A stretch of DNA of 63,620 nt, counting the filler, from Kipferlia bialata (taxonomy: Eukaryota), in the NCBI GenBank assembly GCA_003568945.1. It is 8 parts of 8 records of this genome, joined end to end, with 100 filler letters (N's around TTAATTAATTAA, not from the genome) between each part and the next. Parts side by side here need not be neighbours in the genome. Positions count along the whole stretch, not along the records: positions 30,283 to 40,272 come from BDIP01001521.1; 7 more parts are not named here. One strand, 5' to 3'. The translations under genes and the position numbers were made by a program. Shown here one piece after another: positions 29,451 through 54,735 of this stretch; position 1 is the first letter of the stretch, and each line of letters begins with the position of its first letter. The notes beneath the pieces were generated by a model, which saw only the letters and a list, made by a program, of their open reading frames with translations, made no database searches and was not told the DNA's origin.

Positions 29451-30282
29451 AGTGTTCACGGGTGGATTGTTTAATAGAGAACAAATAGAGTGTACTAGTC
29501 TGAATAGTACAGAAGGGCATTACCAATACAAGGACATTCGCCAAGTTGCCACCTTGCCAGAGGTCTCATTCATATATAGATGAGAAGAGAGTCAGTTGCG
29601 AATTGAGGTCTTACTTTTCCATCATGGTTCAATTGAGACTTGATACTTGAGTATACACTCTGCATCGGAAGACATAATTGTAATATTCTCTGGAGTATAA
29701 CAACAGTGTCTTTAGTTACAAATCTATACATTTACTATTCTATTTAGCCAAGCATGACTACTGCATCGGAAGACATCTTTAGTACCTCTATTGAGTGATT
29801 GATAGTATCAATTTGATACCCCTCACTACGAGGTCGAGCGAGACTCTCGCCTTGAGATAACCTGTTGGCCCATTCATGGGGTCGCTGATACAAATGTATA
29901 TATGAATATATGTATATACATATTTAGTAAATATGGATTCTTATCTCAGCGGACCCTGACGCATGGTTATTATTTAAGAATCCTTCACATACAGTGTCTT
30001 GCGCTGTAGCAGTTGTAGTTTATGGAGAAAGAAACCCTCAAGTGTACAGGAGCACCCTGTTGAGTAATTGATGCCCTCACTGTATACAGATGGCCTCTCA
30101 GTCCACAAGGCCGCCTGGTTCGCACCCCCTCTCTTCTTGAAGCTGTCTGTAGGTATTATTGGGAACGTCCTACACCCAGCGGNNNNNNNNNNNNNNNNNN
30201 NNNNNNNNNNNNNNNNNNNNNNNNNNTTAATTAATTAANNNNNNNNNNNNNNNNNNNNNNNNNNNNNNNNNNNNNNNNNNNN

Positions 30283-30332
<50 letters not shown>

Positions 30333-30386
30333 CGTACTGTATATATTCAAATACAGGTACTGCTCCAACACATATACTGTCCCTAC

Positions 30387-33300
30387 CTGCCCTTAGATCA
30401 TCCACTGGCAGGTTGAGCTCTGTGCCAATCTTGATGGCACGCTCCCTAGGGGGTGAGAGAGACAGAGAGAGAGAAAGAATCATCAATACATTCAATACCT
30501 CGTGTCTGGTCTGTTAGGCCATCTGGACAGGACATCCCTCAGGATGGACAGGGCCTAGAGATTAGGAGTATTGGTATATTAATACTTGCGTGCATATACA
30601 TAGTAGTACACATCGTACACATAAGACAAATACATAAGACATCCCTCAGGATGGACAGGGCCTGGGGGTGAGGGGTATAGATGCGTATATGCTATATATC
30701 ACATACTGTATAGGTGTTTTTAGAGTACATGTGTATATATACGTATCTGTCTCTCAGAATGGACAGGGCCTGGGGTGAGGCAAGGATACACACATTCCAA
30801 TAGTACATAAGGTACACATATACAACATATATACATAACACATCCCTCAGAATGGACAGGGCCTGGGGGTAAGGGGTATAGGTATATATATATGTAAACA
30901 CACACCAGTACACACAATAACTGTACCTGCCCGCCCTGTCCTGGCCATACATACACGAATATATATATCTATATATGGTCTATCTATATAAACTACTACT
31001 GTACCTGCACGCCCTGTCCTGCTCCTGGACAGGACATGGAGAGTAAGAATATGTATGTATACAAATATATACACAGTCACTGTACCTGCACGCCCTGTCC
31101 TGACCATACCCACACTAATATATATATATATCCATATATATCCATATATATGGTCTATCTATGTGTATCCATATGTCTCTATACATCTCTATATATCTGT
31201 ACCTGCACGCCCTGTCCTGCCCGGGAGAGCAGAAGGGCCTTGGTCTCGTGGTATCTGGGGGTCAATAGCGGGTGTATATGATACAAAAATGTTGATACAC
31301 CAATAGAGTGGTAACCATGGTTGATTATCGACTCGATGACTCAGTCGCTATACACATAGCATATATACACATGTATATGTATGTGTGTCTATACTATACC
31401 TTGGGTTGAACGACCCCTCAATCTCGATGAGCCTGTCTATGTACTGTAAGGCATTGGGGGTGTTGCCTCTCCTGGGCATTAGAGACATTAGAGTAGGGAC
31501 ATACCACAATGGGACAGGATACCAGCATACCACTCTTACACTATATATGTATATACAATACACGATACCTCACGCAGTGTGCTGCCAGCCAGGACAGGAC
31601 CTGCACATTCCCAGAGTTCAGCCTGGGATAAGCGTTAGCGTGAGGGTAATAATGCCCCTATAAGGCAGTCGTGCACGATATACACCCACCTGTCACTCTC
31701 CCTGTAGCTGTGCAGTGCCCTTGTCTCCTGGCCTGATGCAGCATAGAGCTGGCCAAGGCTGGGGGGGTGAGGATGGAATAGCATATTGATAGTACTCATC
31801 AAGTTATTGATTAATACTGATTTGCATTGATTGATATATCCCATACCGCATGTAGAGGCCTGGGTCGTGTGATGATACAGACAGAGCACGGGACAGAGAG
31901 TCGATGGCATCGGTGGGTCTGGGGGTGAGGAGGCTGAGACACAGAGATATGTGTAAGTACTATATAGAATGGGTACACTCTGAGGGAGCCGATGGCGTCT
32001 GGGGTTAGGGGGAGGCACCACAAGGTATACACAACTCACTCACACTACATCCAGTAGATGAAAAAGAGTACTACACAATACTATGTATCCCGTACCTGTC
32101 TGTGTGTGCGTAGCACTCCCCCAGCATCCACCAAGACATATATCTAAAAGTCTTATAGATATATATACTCATTTGTAGTATATATACCTATCTGTGTGTG
32201 CGTAGCACTCCCCAAGCAGGAACAGAACCTCGGCACTCCTGGGGTCAGGAGAGATACATATTGTCGACAAGTAAACACCATATATATAATATATATACAG
32301 CAGTGTATACATAATGTACCTCGGCAGCCTCTGGGCGAGTCCTGCGAATATGGAGAGTGCGTCCTGGTATCTGGACTGGTCAAAGTAGCACAGAGCGAGG
32401 TTGTACTTGGCCTCGAGGCTGTCCTGGAGTGAGTATTGAAGAAATAGTGAGAATCAGCAGTAACATATACGCATGGATGAACATAAATATACACACGACC
32501 ATCCAAGTACCTGATCCACCTCCACCGCTCTTAGGAATGTGTCTGTGGCATCAGTCAGCTGGGCCTTGCACACGTGGCAGCAGCATGGGGTGAGGGTGTA
32601 CTATAAACGATAGTATTGATATTGACACATGGACAAACAATAACTCAGAGAAGTGGGCCTTGCACACGTGGCAGCAGCCTGGGGTAAGGTGTGTGTATAT
32701 ATAGAGGATATGTATATATATATATATATACATACATAGAGATGAGCCTTGCATACGTGGCAGCAGCATGGGGTGAGGGTATATATAGGGATAATGCTAT
32801 ACTATATAGTATCTGGATACTATTGTACCGTGCCCTTGATGAGGAGTGCATCATATCATACACTACTACATATATACTATATATATATGTGTGTCTATAT
32901 ATATACGTATATACCCCATACCCTTGATGTGCAGTGCCGGCACAACATAAAAGTACACCCCATTCATATATATGCTACTACACCCATACTACATATGATA
33001 CGTATATACTAACATATACCCTTGATGAGCAGTGCATCATATATACTACTACCTCCATACTATATATGTGTGTGTCTATATATACAAACATATCTATCAT
33101 ATCCCCCTACCCTTGATGAGGAGTGCCGGCACGTTGAGGTTGTCGAGGTCCAGGGCCTTGTCGGCATGGCTGGGGGGTGAGGATATGAAGATCTACGAAA
33201 TATATACTATATATACTATACAATACTAAATAATATACATAATATACAATATATATATGTCAAGGGTCCTGTCGGCACGGCTGGGGGTGGGTATCGGTAT

Positions 33301-36300
33301 AGGTGAGACGAGTATAGATAGACTCCAAGACCCCAATAAGGGGCATTGATGGTATATGTGTGATTGGATGGGGAGTACATAGTATATCCATACACACTGT
33401 ACCTAATGGCCTCCTGTGTGTTCCCAGCCACATACTCTGTGTAGGCTAGGTTGGTGTACACAAAGCGGCGCGTCACCTGGTTGATACCGACCTAGAATGT
33501 AAGGAAGAAAGTGCAACATACACATATATAGGCAGGGCTACTAATATATGTGTAAGATAGAGCAGTATACTACTATGTACACTGCGCACATCTCCCCACC
33601 TTGTCGAACCCGTGCAGTGTCTCGACAGCCTGCTTGAAGTCAAGCCTGGGGTGAGAGGTATGCAATCAGTGTCAGTATCAGTGTTAGTATCAGTGTCAGT
33701 ATCAGTGGGTGAGAGGGATCCTATGGAACGTATGTATCCACTAGCTATAGGAAATATATCCACTAACTACACGCACTTTCTGAGCTGTGCGAGTGCCTTT
33801 CCCATCTATAAGTACATAACTATACTACACATAAATATATATATTCATCAGACACTATACACTAACTACACGCACTTCCTGAGCTGTGCGAGTGCCTTCC
33901 CCATCTCGAGTCTGATGGCCAGGTCTCCCTTGCCGTAGGTGCGCAGGACAGACACGACGCGGTCATAGCCTGGGTCAATGCAAAAGTACTCAATGCTTAT
34001 ACATAATTCCTATTGGATACTGTATATACAATACATCACTATGTCTTTAGGACAGAGACTACGCGGTCATAGCCTGTCGTGAAAATGCAAATACATACAC
34101 ATAAAGGACAAGCAAGTCATACAGTATTAAACATTCATACATCCCTACATCTGATACATGAGCCGATTGAGTATGATATGTTGGGTGCAATGGTATTGAA
34201 ATAGAGCACATTACACAAATCTATCCCTCCCTCTATCTCTATATATACATATCTATAGATACTTACACCATCATACTCTACCTGAGCTGATAGAGTATGA
34301 TATGCTGGGTGCAATGATACAGTGCACTATTCCTATACTATATATGCATATACGTATAATACTATACTATATACATTGATACCTGAGCTGATAGAGTATG
34401 ATATGCTGGGAGCAATGAGTCTGGCCACCAGTAGCACACCCCTGGGAGGGTGAGTAGGTGTGTGGGTAACACACATATTAATAGAGAGACACATCTAGTA
34501 TATATATATCTACAATATATGAGTCAATCAGTCTGGCCACCAGAAGAACACCCCTGGGAGGGTGAGAGAGATACATCTTACAGTATATGTATATATAGTG
34601 CATGCCATAAAGAGTATAAGAGTACACACCTGAGATGGTGAGGGGGTGGGGAGTAAAAACATACATACGTATAGATACGCAATCATAGTCGGTGTAATAC
34701 AATTGTACTACAATTGCATGTAGAGAAGCAGAATCAGCATTGTACCTAGCGTTGGACTGCAGTATTGTGGAGAGGAGGGGGGGGGGGGAGATATGTATCT
34801 ACTATATATATATATATGTGTATTGTATATATACAAATAAGGCATACCTAGCGTTGGACTGCAGTATGGTGGAGAGGTGCCTCCCAAGGTCATCGGCCTG
34901 GAGATAAGTACTACATACATACTAGTCGATATACAAATTACTATATGATATATGATACTTATCGATATTTAATGATACTATATATATGGTGGAGAGGTGC
35001 CGCCCAAGGGGGGTGAGCATTATAGAGACATCAGTAATCGGTATATACATACAATGTCTCTGTATAACTAAGGTCATCGGCCTGGGTCGAGTATGGGCAG
35101 GGGGAGGGAGTAGATACTAAACCCGACACCTTATAGATACTAATGGAGAGGATCATACTGATACCATACTGAATGCAATATATACCTGGTTAGCCCCCTC
35201 GTCCACCTCCCCGTCTAGGTTGATGGACAGGTTCAGGGCATTGTCGTCCATGCCTGGGGTGAGAAGGGAATAGGTACTTATAATGTATGATTCACATCTA
35301 TGTCTACAATACAGATACATTACTAAAAGAATAGATAGTAAGGGCCAGGGCATTGTCGTCGATGCCTAAGGTGAGAATGGGATATCAAGACAGGTATGAG
35401 TGTATGAATACAGTACTATGATCAACGATCTAGAGGTCAGGGCATTGTCGTCCATGCCTGGGGGGTAAGAGGGGATGTGTACACAGTACACACATAGTAT
35501 TATAGGCTAGAGGGGAAAGATGTATAAGAAGAGAGAAAGAGTGATCGAGAGAGAAAGAGAGACCATTGCTCCTACTTGATAAGGCCATGTCTATACCATT
35601 AATATACCACACCTATTGAGTGTGCATTGGCTATGGATGTGTCATATATATATATCTATATACCATACACTATATATATATATATATATATACACCATAC
35701 CTATTGAGTGTGCATTGGCTATGGAGGCATCTGCCTCGTTCAGGGCCTTGACCAGTCTGGAGGGTGAGGGGAGGGTATATATATACATACCCACACATTA
35801 ACACACATATATATGTGTGTGTGATAACGAGGGCCTATACCAGCCTAAGGGTCAGAGAGGGGGGGGGGGGGTTTAATATACCAATACATACACAATTCAT
35901 GCTTGCAACTGCCTCTGGTCCACCTCTCTCTCTCTCTCTCTCTATAAATACGCATAGACTACTCTATATACCTAGTGAATGCCTGGTGCATCAGCCTCTG
36001 GTCCTCCAGGGCATAGTAGCAGATGACAAGGGAGTAGAGCACGCTGAACTCCTGAGGCTTAGACAATAAATACATATACATGTATAGTAGTATCATGTAT
36101 ATATATATACAGGGAGTAGAGCACGCTGAACTCCTGGGGATGAGGGGCAGATAATACCAATACCGTGGTGACACACACATATACATGAATATAATAGAAC
36201 ATATCCATACCTGCGTGACCTCTGCCAGGTCCTCCAGCACAGAGACTTGTATATGTATATATATATACATATACTTATATATACTTACAACATATGCATA

Positions 36301-39300
36301 TATTTTCATGTATCTATATACACTGTCTATCTCTATCCATACCTGCGTGACCTCTGCCAGGTCCTCTAGGACAGACACGGCATCCTGCCACCGCTCTGGG
36401 GGGTGAGATGGATATGGAGGATACATGAATACACATATATGATACACATGCATACTAGACAAATACACGGCATCCTGCCACCGCTCTGGGGGGTAAGATA
36501 GATATGGCAAGGCCATACAAACGTAGAACAGATATATACACTGTACCTAGCAGTATGAGTGCTTTGACTATGTTGAGGGGTAAAACCTACACTCTGCATC
36601 TACTAATTATCAATCTATATAGATCCATCTCAATATACATATACTCCCTACCTAGCAGTATGAGTGCCTTGACTATGTTGAGGGATATCCTGACACTCTA
36701 TATCTACTATCTATATATATATATGTACACTATATATATATATACACTATATACCTAGCAGTATGAGTGCCTTGACTATGTTGAGGGATATCCTGACACG
36801 CAGGGTCTCCCTGGCCCTGGGGGATGAGGCATGGGTATCTATATATCTATCTATATATTAACATAGAGGTACTCTATGGATCTGTTCCAGCTATGTAGGG
36901 AGAGAGAGAGAGACCTGCATAGAAAAATATACAGACAGAGGAATACCTTGGAATCTGGTCCAGTGCCATGCGCCAGTACTTGATGGCATCCTGGTACCTC
37001 TCCTGGGGTGAAAGTTACATAAATATAGAGCTTTTCAGATATTTAGATATGAATAAATGAAATATATGCTGTTTCCCACCTGCTTTTAGCGAAGTGCATC
37101 ACCATTGACTCTGACCATATATGAGTATGTCTGCATCCATTCCCATTATAATATACATATATATATATATATATATAACCTATGCCTATATATACATATA
37201 CTTAAATATGCAACCTGCTTGTAGTGGAGTGCCCCAACGTTGACCCATATGTATATGTCTCTATCTATATCCATACCTATCTCATCTGCATAACTATAAT
37301 CTAAGCCTCTATATGCCTATACATACCTGCTTGTAGTGGAGTGCCCCCACGTTAACCCTGATCTCACTGGTCCTCTCGGGGTCAAGGCCCTCGGTCGGGG
37401 TGCCGTTGCCTGGGGGTTAGGTATATATATACATATAGGGATATATGATACTAACAACACTAGAATATATGTGAATAATATAGGTCGGGGTGCCGTTGCC
37501 TAGTGGTTAGTATGTATATAGAGATAGGTATATATGGGTGTATATATTTTAGTCTATATGAATTGTGAGGGTCGGGGTGCAGTTGCCTGAAGGTTAGGAT
37601 GTGTATATAGTGACGTATGCTATAACACACATATACATATACACTATGTACATACCGTTACTCCTAGACTGTGCTGTCAGCAGGTTGCCATAGGTATATA
37701 TATATATATATATATATATACTATTATGCACTAATATACATATATTCACTGTGTTCATACCGTTACTCCTAGACTGTGCTGTCAGCAGGTTGCCATAGGT
37801 ATATATATGTATATATATACTATTATGCACTATTACACATATATACACTATGCACATACCGTTACTCCTTGACTGTGCTGTCAGCAGGTTGCCATAGGTG
37901 GCCAGGGCCTCGGATATGAGACCAGCCCTGGGGGTTTGACCCTAGTAGTGTATGTACATCATGCATCTAACTATATCTACATATATCTATATCTATATAT
38001 GCGTATAGGTGGCCAGAGCCTCGGAGATGAGACCAGCTCTAGAGGTGAGATTAGGACATACAATTCAATGCAATAATGGTATACATACTGACTATACTGT
38101 ATGTATACTCTACAAACATAATTCTCCCACCTTGGCTGGCAGATACCCCTGTGATACCATGCCCTATACACCATGTACTATACCACAAATACATACATAC
38201 TATATCCACTATATATCCACTATACACTCACCTTGTCTGGCAGATGCCCCTGTGGAACTGCAGGGTGTACCTGGGGGTGAGGAAGATATATATGGAGAGA
38301 GACACATATGTAGAGAGAGAGAGAGTACCTCAGGTCTGTACTAGCCAGGGTCTCTGACACATCCAGGTCATGGGTCTCCATCAGGGACCTTGGGGTGTGG
38401 GAATATATATATATATACTATACTATGTATGTATAGGCTGAGAGAGAGAGAGAAAGAGAGGCCATGGGTCTCCATCAGGGACCTGGGGGGTTAGGATATG
38501 TATATAGTATTGTATATGAATGGGGGACATCCACACATCCACATATATTCATATTCGCATACCTGAGCTTTGTCTCGAGCTGGATACCCTGCCTAATCCT
38601 CTTCAGGGCCTGGGGGTGAGGTATTTCTAGGAGGTACGTCTGTATTACCAGTGGATGTGTATCTGAATGAAATACGCTTTCTGCTGTGCCCATACCTAGA
38701 GTATATACTATTCTCCCATATATATATATCCATATACTGTATCCATACCTTCTGGTGTGCCTCTGTGGTGCCCAGGGCAAATGCTATACTATTATACTTN
38801 NNNNNNNNNNNNNNNNNNNNNNNNNNNNNNNNNNNNNNNNNNNNNNNNNNNNNNNNNNNNNNNNNNNNNTACATACTCATATATATTGTCTCATTGAGTA
38901 TACCTTCTGGTGTGCCTCTGTGGTACCAAGGGCACAGGAACAGGCAGCGTCCTGGGGTGAGGGATGGAGGCCACACTCAATCTATACCATATATCTGTAC
39001 ACTATGCATCTATACCTCCATGCACTGGTGGATCTGTCTCTCTCTTCCTCGCTCTCTCTCCCTATATATATACTATAAATATATGCCATATATATACTCT
39101 CTGTACCTCCATGCACTGGTGTATCTGTCTCTCGAGTGCCCTGGCCTTGATCTTGGGGGACGAGGACACGGCGTCCCTAGGGGTTAGGAGATATGATATG
39201 TACATTAATATATACTACCATATATATATATATATATATATACATATCTTGGGGGACGAGGACACGGCGTCCCTAGGGTTATTAACCTATACTATATTAT

Positions 39301-39901
39301 TTGTTATAATATTATATGTTATATTATATACATATACATACATCATATACTTGGGGGACGAGGACACGGCATCCCTGGGGGGGTGAGAAGAAACATGCCA
39401 AGAGAGAGAGAGAGAGAGACATATAGGCAGAGAGAGGCCAAAAGACACAGCGACCCATATAGAGTTGGTCAGCGCACATATACTTCACCTTACATATTAA
39501 TGAATATATATACATACACATATATATGTGTGTGTGTGAATACATACCTAGGCAGTCTGCTCTGTGTGGCGTATCCTGCTGAGCGGCCCATCCTGCCTAG
39601 AGGGTGAGGCAGAGACATATACATACAAGTATATAAATGGAGACTAAGATATAGAGATGTATACATAGCAGAGCGGCCCATCCTGCCTAGGGGGTGAGGC
39701 AGAGACATATATACATACAAATACACACACACACCAATATATATATATATGGAGACTAAGGTACAGAGAGGTATACAAAGCAGAGCGGCCCATCCTGCCT
39801 GGGGGGTGAGGCAGAGGGAGACATGGGGGGGGGGGAGGAGAGAGTAAGCGAGAGGTATGCACTATCAGTACCTGTCCCTGCCTCTGCTGCTGAACCCAGC
39901 T

Positions 39902-39932
<31 letters not shown>

Positions 39933-40196
39933 CTCAATATATATATATATATACTCAACATAAATATATACTAGAGTATACACACCTGTACCCGGCCTGC
40001 CTCTGCTGCTGAACCCAGCTGCCTGCACTGCAGTCATTAGTCTAGCGGGGGGCTCTCTGCTGCCTAAGGGTTAGGGAGAGAGAGGACGGAGAGGGATAGA
40101 ACAGAGTACAACGAGTCAGCCATTTATCAGTCACCCCCTACCTCCGGCATGGTTTCCTGTCACACCGATGGTGGCTGTGGCCTGCTGCTGCACTAC
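30387..40196 (-). CDS. IFT88: Intraflagellar transport protein 88 (TPR protein), truncated at both ends
   Basis: Minus-strand exons give RLMTAVQAAGFSS, IRVNVGALHYKQERYQDAIKYWRMALDQIP, LVARLIAPSISYSISSGYDRVVSVLR...LAIRLEMGKA, YTNLAY, HADKALDLDNLNVPALLIKG, EAKYNLAL, LGQLYAASGQETRALHSYRESDR, NVQVLSWLAAH, matching IFT88 motifs (RPMTAIRAAGF, AIKFYRMALDQIP, AKLIAP). Confidence 0.92.
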
Positions 40197-40372
40197 CTGG
40201 GTGTGAGGCCAGGAGGATACATGGGGAGAAGGGGGGGAGGGGGGGGGGGGGGGCCACCAAGGGGGAGGAGGCNNNNNNNNNNNNNNNNNNNNNNNNNNNN
40301 NNNNNNNNNNNNNNNNTTAATTAATTAANNNNNNNNNNNNNNNNNNNNNNNNNNNNNNNNNNNNNNNNNNNN

Positions 40373-44492: not shown

Positions 44493-45052
44493 CTGACATG
44501 AGTGTATATATACATGTTAGTAGAGAGAGAGAGACAGAGAGAGAGAGATGGGGAGAGAGAGTCTGTGAAAGAGCACTGAGGATCTGACACGCATATCCCA
44601 GAGAGAGAGAGCGTGTGTGTGTGTGTGTGTGTGTGTGAGAGAAGGACAGGTGACACTCAATATGCAGAAGGCAGATAGTGTGTGTGGGGGGGGGGGGGGG
44701 ATAGGAAAAAATTTCACTTCTGNNNNNNNNNNNNNNNNNNNNNNNNNNNNNNNNNNNNNNNNNNNNTTAATTAATTAANNNNNNNNNNNNNNNNNNNNNN
44801 NNNNNNNNNNNNNNNNNNNNNNCCCGGTCCCCGGGTTTCCCCCCCCCCCCCCCCCCCCCCTCTTCTGTTCTTACCTCAATTGGTATATATATATGAATAC
44901 ATATGTGTATCCATATCCCTCATCCTAGGACATGTGGGTCAGGTCCAGGCTCAGTGCCTCTCCGTCTCTCTCTTTCTCTGTTTCTCTCTGTCTATCTGTC
45001 CCTCTCTCGCTCTCTCTCTCTATATATATACATACATATACTAATCCATCAG

Positions 45053-54735
<9,683 letters not shown>

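What the first reader, a model, noticed from the sequence alone, without database searches (positions are those of the whole stretch)
32511..32775. IFT88 exon lacks an AG acceptor; only an upstream echo has one
Seen: the full exon 32511-32584(-) (GCCHVCKAQLTDATDTFLRAVEVDQ, needed for frame and TPR length) is preceded by ctcaccccAT. An echo at 32654-32678, identical over 25 nt, is preceded by ttaccccAG, and a third copy (32746-32767) again has AT, which argues against a single-base error. Inference: either a non-canonical AT acceptor, or the echo acts as a micro-exon spliced at AAG|GC...AG|GCC (a newborn GC-AG intron from tandem duplication), or DNA-level recombination joins echo head to exon body.
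Basis: partly seen in the sequence, partly recalled or inferred. Interest (0 to 1): 0.85.

Follow-up and report, generated by a model that had tools for sequence, protein, structure and literature searches.

The report
AT-ending intron beats its AG twin
In the flagellar gene IFT88 of the protist Kipferlia bialata, an RNA contig starts one exon exactly after the letters AT instead of the usual AG, likely because the splicing machinery uses that odd site directly and ignores a normal AG copy 94 bases upstream, one of many partial exon copies that fill the introns of this DNA.

Summary
Observation confirmed. The gene is Kipferlia bialata IFT88 (KIPB_006087). A contig from a run listed as probable RNA joins 33111 to 32584 exactly. 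The 526-nt intron therefore reads GT...AT. The full exon restores 34-residue TPR spacing; the public model uses a cryptic AG and loses 14 residues.

Best reading (0.62): a direct GT-AT intron. The AT site's branch/pyrimidine stretch outscores 60 of 66 true acceptors. The micro-exon route needs a donor below all 29 real donors and an acceptor below all 66. The DNA base at 32585 could not be checked, so a heterozygous AG allele or consensus error remains (0.22).

The echo is not special here: 19 of 30 introns carry partial exon copies. These copies are oddly constrained. 31 of 41 differences from the live exon are synonymous (25-33% expected), 34 of 53 in other genes, and 67 of 69 echo acceptors keep AG although their intron tails look unrelated. 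GT-AT introns are known (human DGCR2, Giardia DinF). Five Kipferlia searches and two general ones listed no paper on the echoes; I read parts of only some hits. The scan noted similar echoes in a sea-urchin gene.

The parts
33111..33169 (-). Upstream IFT88 exon (model exon 21)
   Evidence: Matches KIPB_006087; its 3' end is the loose end of the RNA contig
32585..33110 (-). 526-nt intron, GTAGGG...CTCACCCCAT (GT-AT)
   Evidence: Junction from RNA contig; register test
33020..33035 (-). Donor echo 1 (end of exon 21 followed by GT)
32922..32943 (-). Donor echo 2 (followed by GT)
32834..32849 (-). Donor echo 3, followed by GC; the only non-GT among 19 donor echoes with a printed flank
32746..32780 (-). 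Acceptor echo 2: 13-nt identical tail ending AT, plus exon head with synonymous differences
32654..32690 (-). Acceptor echo 1: branch motif, AG, and 25-nt exon head identical to the live exon; joined to the exon end it would frameshift
32585..32598 (-). Branch motif CTCAC, C run and AT of the live acceptor; branch A 6 nt from the intron end
   Evidence: sequence; score above 60 of 66 true acceptors; spacing within the 5-9 nt seen in 27 of 30 introns
32511..32584 (-). Live 74-nt exon (model exon 22), completing one TPR
   Evidence: RNA contig, 0 other letters; TPR spacing 34; gap against IFT88 relatives
32543..32544 (-). Cryptic AG used by the public gene model, which drops 14 residues
   Evidence: not used in the RNA contig
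30388..40037 (-). IFT88 gene, 31 exons in the model, partial at the contig ends
   Evidence: (Chlamydomonas IFT88 chain 8bd7_A, E 1.4e-44)

Best explanation
The RNA contig joins the upstream exon to the base right after an AT, and the 526-base intron is likely removed in one step as a GT-AT intron by the organism's ordinary spliceosome, which likely places the cut by the strong branch site six bases upstream. Shown: the junction, the GT start, the strong branch/pyrimidine stretch and the tight 5-9 nt branch-to-end spacing of this gene's introns. Inferred: the spliceosome picks the acceptor that lies one short exon (39-104 nt in this gene) from the next donor, so upstream echo acceptors are passed over, as they must be at the 12 other exons with acceptor echoes. 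A terminal G-to-T change is then tolerated because position, not an AG scan, fixes the site. Also inferred: echoes are tandem copies of exon ends taken from working alleles by unequal exchange or conversion. On that reading echo 2 records an earlier AT version of this acceptor and echo 1 an AG version.
For: Exact junction in the only RNA-type contig laid, depth 157.7, with no alternative joint listed. Of 11 registers tried, only GT..AT and TA..TG give it. Positions -14..-3 score 10.3, above 60 of 66 true acceptors and higher than echo 1 (7.4); even with AT counted, the site outscores 15 of 66. Branch-to-end distance is 5-9 nt in 27 of 30 introns, and 6 nt here. A second AT copy carries the same 13-nt flank. 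Of seven acceptors tried, only the AT site and the annotation's cryptic AG keep the frame open, and only the AT site gives the 34-residue repeat. Precedent: U2-type GT-AT conserved in human and mouse DGCR2 (PMC1557818, passages); a rarely spliced GT-AT intron in Giardia DinF (PMC10711314, table passage); strict branch-to-acceptor spacing in Giardia and Trichomonas (PMC6679479, passages).
Against: The T at 32585 was not confirmed by independent DNA data, and the species is reported as diploid (PMC5874029, passage). The mRNA is identical under the micro-exon model, so the contig cannot tell the two apart. Contigs drop rare forms, so splicing efficiency is unknown. The donor is weak (above only 1 of 29), which is not the compensation often seen at non-canonical introns. 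A motif scan passed 96 AG sites and 45 non-AG rows; by eye none of the latter was a second live non-AG exon start, so tolerance is not shown to be general. The Giardia GT-AT intron is spliced in only 1.3% of reads.
Confidence: 0.62

Rival explanations
1. The site is heterozygous or miscalled: another homologue (or the true sequence) has AG and makes the mRNA, while the assembled AT copy is a weak or dead allele, perhaps overwritten recently by echo 2's tail.
For: No DNA cover at the base. The species is reported diploid. The live site shares its tail with echo 2 but its head with echo 1, as a recent conversion would give. Run X1 holds 0.99 of 243 sampled words, which leaves room for one discordant base.
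Against: A random miscall would not recur in echo 2 with the same flank. The shared repeats (25-26 nt) are short for a flank swap in a short-read assembly (general knowledge, not tested). The RNA contig differs from the assembly at 0 of 496 exon bases, suggesting little heterozygosity here.
Confidence: 0.22
2. Echo 1 works as a 20-nt micro-exon: a 432-nt GT-AG intron ends at echo 1, then a 94-nt GC-AG intron is removed between the two copies, giving the same mRNA.
For: Echo 1 has a good canonical acceptor (above 41 of 66) and is identical to the exon for 25 nt, so the product is the same. The AG used would be the first AG after the live branch motif. Echo acceptors keep AG unusually often.
Against: The donor GCCCAC scores below 29 of 29 true donors; +3 is A or G in all 29. 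The acceptor scores below 66 of 66, has 3 G in -10..-3 (maximum 2 in true sites), and would lie 26 nt from the branch motif (sequence). The shortest exon in the gene is 39 nt. The other registers (GT..AC, GT..GT, GC..AT) are still non-canonical. No unusually stable fold brings the ends together (z -0.30).
Confidence: 0.07
3. The 94 bases between echo 1 and the live exon are deleted at DNA level (on one homologue or in part of the cells) by recombination between the 25-nt repeats, creating a normal AG exon that is the expressed form.
For: The repeats are direct and in register, and the product would be canonical. The coding-like conservation of echoes suggests such exchanges happen over evolutionary time.
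Against: The assembly shows the undeleted form, run X1 holds 0.99 of its sampled words, and no DNA joint was listed, although cover was absent. The six downstream junctions are ordinary GT..AG splices, including one that skips a donor echo.
Confidence: 0.05
4. The RNA is spliced to echo 1's AG, and the 94 bases are lost only in the cDNA by reverse-transcriptase template switching between the repeats.
For: Direct repeats favour this artefact (PMC4176328, passages).
Against: The long form would stop at residue 472 in a gene needed for flagella (general knowledge), and the artefact would have to be the majority form in the contig.
Confidence: 0.02

Closest known systems
U2-type non-canonical GT-AT intron of human/mouse DGCR2 (Sheth et al. 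2006, PMC1557818, passages)
   Same: GT start with a major-type donor, AT end, good pyrimidine stretch
   Different: Conserved between two species there; here one assembly, no DNA check, and an intact AG copy with the same exon head 94 nt upstream
Giardia 'Type A' GT-AT intron in DinF and fused branch point/3' site introns of diplomonads and Trichomonas (PMC10711314, PMC6679479, passages)
   Same: Related lineage; short branch-to-acceptor distance; GT-AT ends
   Different: The Giardia case is 30 nt and spliced in 1.3% of reads; here the junction is the form kept in the contig of a 526-nt intron, and spacing varies from 5 to 9 nt
U12-type GT-AT introns (7 listed in PMC1557818 Table 2)
   Same: Works alike: 3' end set by a nearby branch site, terminal T tolerated
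   Different: Donor GTAGGG lacks the U12 motif. Human IFT88's minor intron follows TAT (PMC6717393 supplement 1), not the Lys-Gly codons here, so it is likely another position
Human F7 IVS7 37-bp minisatellite with repeated silent donor sites (PMC1557585, abstract)
   Same: Copies of an exon-intron border lie in the intron and are passed over
   Different: One locus, donor side only; here both sides, in 19 of 30 introns, with mostly synonymous divergence
Intron gain by tandem duplication of a proto-splice site (recalled, no call)
   Different: The repeat here offers AG|GC with a very poor donor and no nearby branch site

Membership tests
IFT88 | Full-length similarity to a named IFT88 | tested here: met
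   KIPB_006087 vs 8bd7_A, E 1.4e-44 over residues 18-573; best natural hit
Major-type GT-AT intron | Transcript joins the two exons exactly at GT and AT | tested here: met
   (TA..TG is the only other register)
Major-type GT-AT intron | Organism-typical donor and branch/pyrimidine signals | tested here: met
   Donor within the true range but weak (above 1 of 29); acceptor stretch above 60 of 66
Major-type GT-AT intron | Terminal base confirmed in DNA of the expressed allele | tested here: inconclusive
   DNA run gave no cover at 32585; metagenome scan found no second isolate
Major-type GT-AT intron | Removed in one spliceosomal step (lariat to the branch A near the AT) | not testable with these tools
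   Only contigs were available
U12-type intron | U12 donor motif (GTATCC-like; consensus recalled, human IFT88 example GTATCTTAT) | tested here: not met
   Donor reads GTAGGGGG
U12-type intron | Minor spliceosome present in the organism | not testable with these tools
   No genome held; PMC6679479 section 11 found no snRNA candidates at all in K. bialata
GC-AG intron born by tandem duplication (micro-exon) | AG|GY proto-site inside the duplicated unit | tested here: met
   AAG|GC at offset 20 of the 25-nt repeat
GC-AG intron born by tandem duplication (micro-exon) | Strong donor context and branch site at the organism's spacing | tested here: not met
   Donor below 29 of 29, acceptor below 66 of 66
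Repeated silent splice-site arrays (F7 IVS7 type) | Intronic copies of an exon border that are skipped in the mRNA | tested here: met
   45 echoes. The RNA contig carries the live-exon letters where the donor echo near 32126 and echo 2 differ; only these two could be checked

The most novel reading that the evidence does not exclude
Kipferlia keeps spare, working copies of exon ends with their splice sites inside most introns. They stay under coding selection because they are swapped into use, by recombination or at RNA level, and the AT exon of IFT88 is a site that now depends on its spare (micro-exon or repeat collapse). This would be a genome-wide back-up system for splice junctions.
Probability: 0.12. 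Interest if true: 0.87.

Novelty: new variant of a known kind. Interest (0 to 1): 0.52.

Why it matters
If the base is right, this is a natural experiment: two acceptors 94 nt apart share the same 25-nt exon head, and the one without AG marks the exon start in the transcript. That would show 3' site choice by branch position and exon context in a reduced spliceosome (87 of 174 proteins found, U1 proteins nearly absent in the metamonads studied; PMC6679479 section 11), and it is easy to test with reads or a minigene. It also corrects a public IFT88 model by 14 residues and suggests that GT-AG-only annotation of this species (124,912 introns counted as GU-AG, PMC5874029) hides other cases. The wider echo pattern, with synonymous-biased heads and kept splice signals, bears on how introns grow and how exon borders are turned over by recombination.

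Tried and rejected
DNA check of base 32585: run X1 covered 6 of 30 bins, none at the site; no raw reads were listed. No whole genome is held, so counts come from this window only. Second isolate: one metagenome scan with a degenerate exon motif gave 2 loci, both unrelated (no blastn match to the window, tblastn E 6.8). U12 remnant idea rejected: no U12 donor, and the human IFT88 minor intron has another exon flank; the Larue and Roy survey names Kipferlia only in a supplementary tree whose values I could not read. RNA structure joining the repeats: z -0.30. Second non-AG exon in the window: none found. Apparent hits such as +12421 are donors of minus-strand genes, and -16008 is an echo with AC. 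The frame-free test of synonymous bias outside IFT88 was not significant (13 of 28 spacings divisible by 3, p 0.10). Echoes as cDNA inserts rejected: they carry intron flanks. Literature: Kipferlia searches and general ones listed no paper on these echoes or this intron by title or abstract start; one search found the GT-AT precedents and the human minor intron. Subscription journals and bioRxiv supplements were not searched.

Full report
Identity. A window translation found one protein with E <= 1 among 92 candidates: Kipferlia bialata KIPB_006087, 636 aa, on a 9,990-base contig. This equals the stretch between two N spacers of the window (30283-40272), so the window appears to be several contigs joined end to end. 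The protein's best natural PDB match is Chlamydomonas IFT88 (8bd7_A, E 1.4e-44). Mapping it back gave 31 exons and 30 introns on the minus strand.

Observation. The live exon 32584-32511 follows CTCACCCCAT. Echo 1 at 32678 follows CTTACCCCAG and is identical for 25 nt. Echo 2 at 32767 shares 13 nt on each side of the border, including AT, and differs at two synonymous positions. The public model avoids the problem by using a cryptic AG at 32543 and loses 14 residues. That loss is a 14-column gap against 8bd7_A and against P0005; with the full exon, helix starts are 34, 34, 34 residues apart.

RNA evidence. Two runs were listed. The one contig laid from X2 (2,294 nt, depth 157.7, kind 'RNA?') skips six GT..AG introns, covers 32510-32584 with no other letter, and its loose end matches the upstream exon from 33111. 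The junction is therefore 33111|32584. Of 11 registers tried, GT..AT (526 nt) and TA..TG give it. DNA run X1 covered 6 of 30 bins and not the site, so the T rests on the assembly alone. Contigs drop rare forms, so efficiency and intermediates are unseen.

Which route. I trained weight matrices on 29 canonical introns of this gene plus 37 hand-picked acceptors from other contigs (66 acceptors, 29 donors). The AT site's -14..-3 stretch scores above 60 of 66, better than echo 1 (41 of 66). Its branch A is 6 nt from the end; the motif lies 5-9 nt from the end in 27 of 30 introns, and the other three show variant motifs at similar distance by eye. The micro-exon route needs donor GCCCAC (below 29 of 29; +3 is A or G in all) and an acceptor below 66 of 66. 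Direct GT-AT needs one deviation, so I favour it. Against it: the real donor is weak (above 1 of 29), and a scan that passed 96 AG sites and 45 non-AG rows showed no second live non-AG exon start by eye.

The echo is ordinary here. The gene has 45 intronic copies of exon parts in 19 of 30 introns: exon heads with intron tails upstream, exon ends with GT downstream. Thirteen exons have acceptor echoes, and in each only the last copy continues into a full exon, so passing over an upstream AG copy is the rule. This needs exon-context recognition rather than a scan to the first AG (inference). RNA confirms skipping only where it was laid and the letters differ (echo 2, and the donor echo near 32126).

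The echoes are not behaving like dead DNA. In IFT88, 31 of 41 differences from the live exon are synonymous (27 of 37 after merging shared ones), against 25-33% for neutral change and 40-49% if only the live exon were constrained (p 0.0005 and 0.003 against 0.49). In 36 families on other contigs, with frames chosen by codon usage, 34 of 53 distinct differences are synonymous (p 0.0001-0.01 against the second model); two frames there look wrong by eye, which would undercount. A frame-free test was not significant (13 of 28, p 0.10). Splice signals are kept: 19 of 20 acceptor echoes in IFT88 have AG, the exception being echo 2; 18 of 19 donor echoes with a printed flank have GT, the exception being in this same intron. 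Across 69 pairs in 48 hand-curated families (wrong-strand and offset duplicates and the target family left out), 67 echoes keep AG and 66 a branch motif, while tails at -40..-15 are hardly more alike than unrelated ones (0.63 vs 0.58). Seeding on AG sites may inflate this last count; the IFT88 counts were found without it. The simplest reading, inferred, is that echoes are copies of working alleles laid down by unequal exchange or conversion, and that they cycle back into use when repeats collapse. Echo 2 would then record an earlier AT acceptor and echo 1 an AG one. The same process could have put AT on one homologue recently, which is why the heterozygous rival keeps 0.22; the RNA contig matches the assembly at all 496 exon bases laid, which suggests little heterozygosity.

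Known systems. A U2-type GT-AT intron is conserved in human and mouse DGCR2, and 7 U12-type GT-AT introns are tabulated (PMC1557818, passages). Giardia has a rarely spliced GT-AT intron (PMC10711314, passages). Fused branch and 3' sites with strict spacing are described in diplomonads and Trichomonas (PMC6679479, passages and section 11). U12 introns tolerate a terminal T, and direct repeats cause RT artefacts (PMC4176328, passages). The intron is not U12-type: wrong donor, and the human IFT88 minor intron (PMC13216214 and PMC7507305 passages; PMC6717393 supplement rows) follows TAT, not Lys-Gly. Repeated silent donors are known from human F7 (PMC1557585, abstract; lead from earlier finding e1-7787398, then listed). 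The passages I saw of the species' genome paper count GU-AG introns and report diploidy (PMC5874029); its supplements were not read. PMC10639083 gave nothing usable on Kipferlia (passages and one supplement hit). Searches listed nothing on these echoes by title or abstract start.

Verdict. A real exon with an RNA-supported start after AT, most likely a direct GT-AT intron (0.62): a known rare class in an unusual setting with a built-in AG competitor. The echo architecture with coding-like constraint is the more surprising part and deserves its own genome-wide test. Interest 0.52.

Noticed in passing
window 30388-40037 (-) and other contigs (4754-62734): Partial copies of exon ends with their splice sites fill most introns; differences from the live exon are mostly synonymous (31 of 41; 34 of 53 elsewhere) and AG/GT are kept while intron tails diverge.
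   Followed up: partly
window 32768-32833 (-): The gene's only GC donor echo and only AT acceptor echo are the innermost pair of this same intron, 66 nt apart. Unexplained.
   Followed up: no
window 32511-32584 (-): The public model KIPB_006087 lacks 14 residues here because it uses a cryptic AG at 32543.
   Followed up: yes
window N spacers, e.g. 30183-30282 and 40273-40372: The window appears to be separate contigs joined by N runs around a 12-base spacer; genes on either side are not neighbours.
   Followed up: partly
window 40143-40204 and 40038-40062 (-): The RNA contig holds 1,429 nt before this exon against about 1,290 in the model, so the gene likely has further 5' exons beyond the annotated start.
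   Followed up: no
window 16008 (-): An acceptor echo ending in AC, upstream of two AG copies.
   Followed up: no
window 10900-20000 (-) and 44900-53500 (+): Exon translations resemble two DEAH-box RNA helicases (family recalled from motifs printed; not searched).
   Followed up: no
window 38389, 37928, 36052 (-): Three live acceptors lack the T-N-A-Y branch motif and show variants (CACAC, CAAAC, CTAAG) at similar spacing.
   Followed up: no
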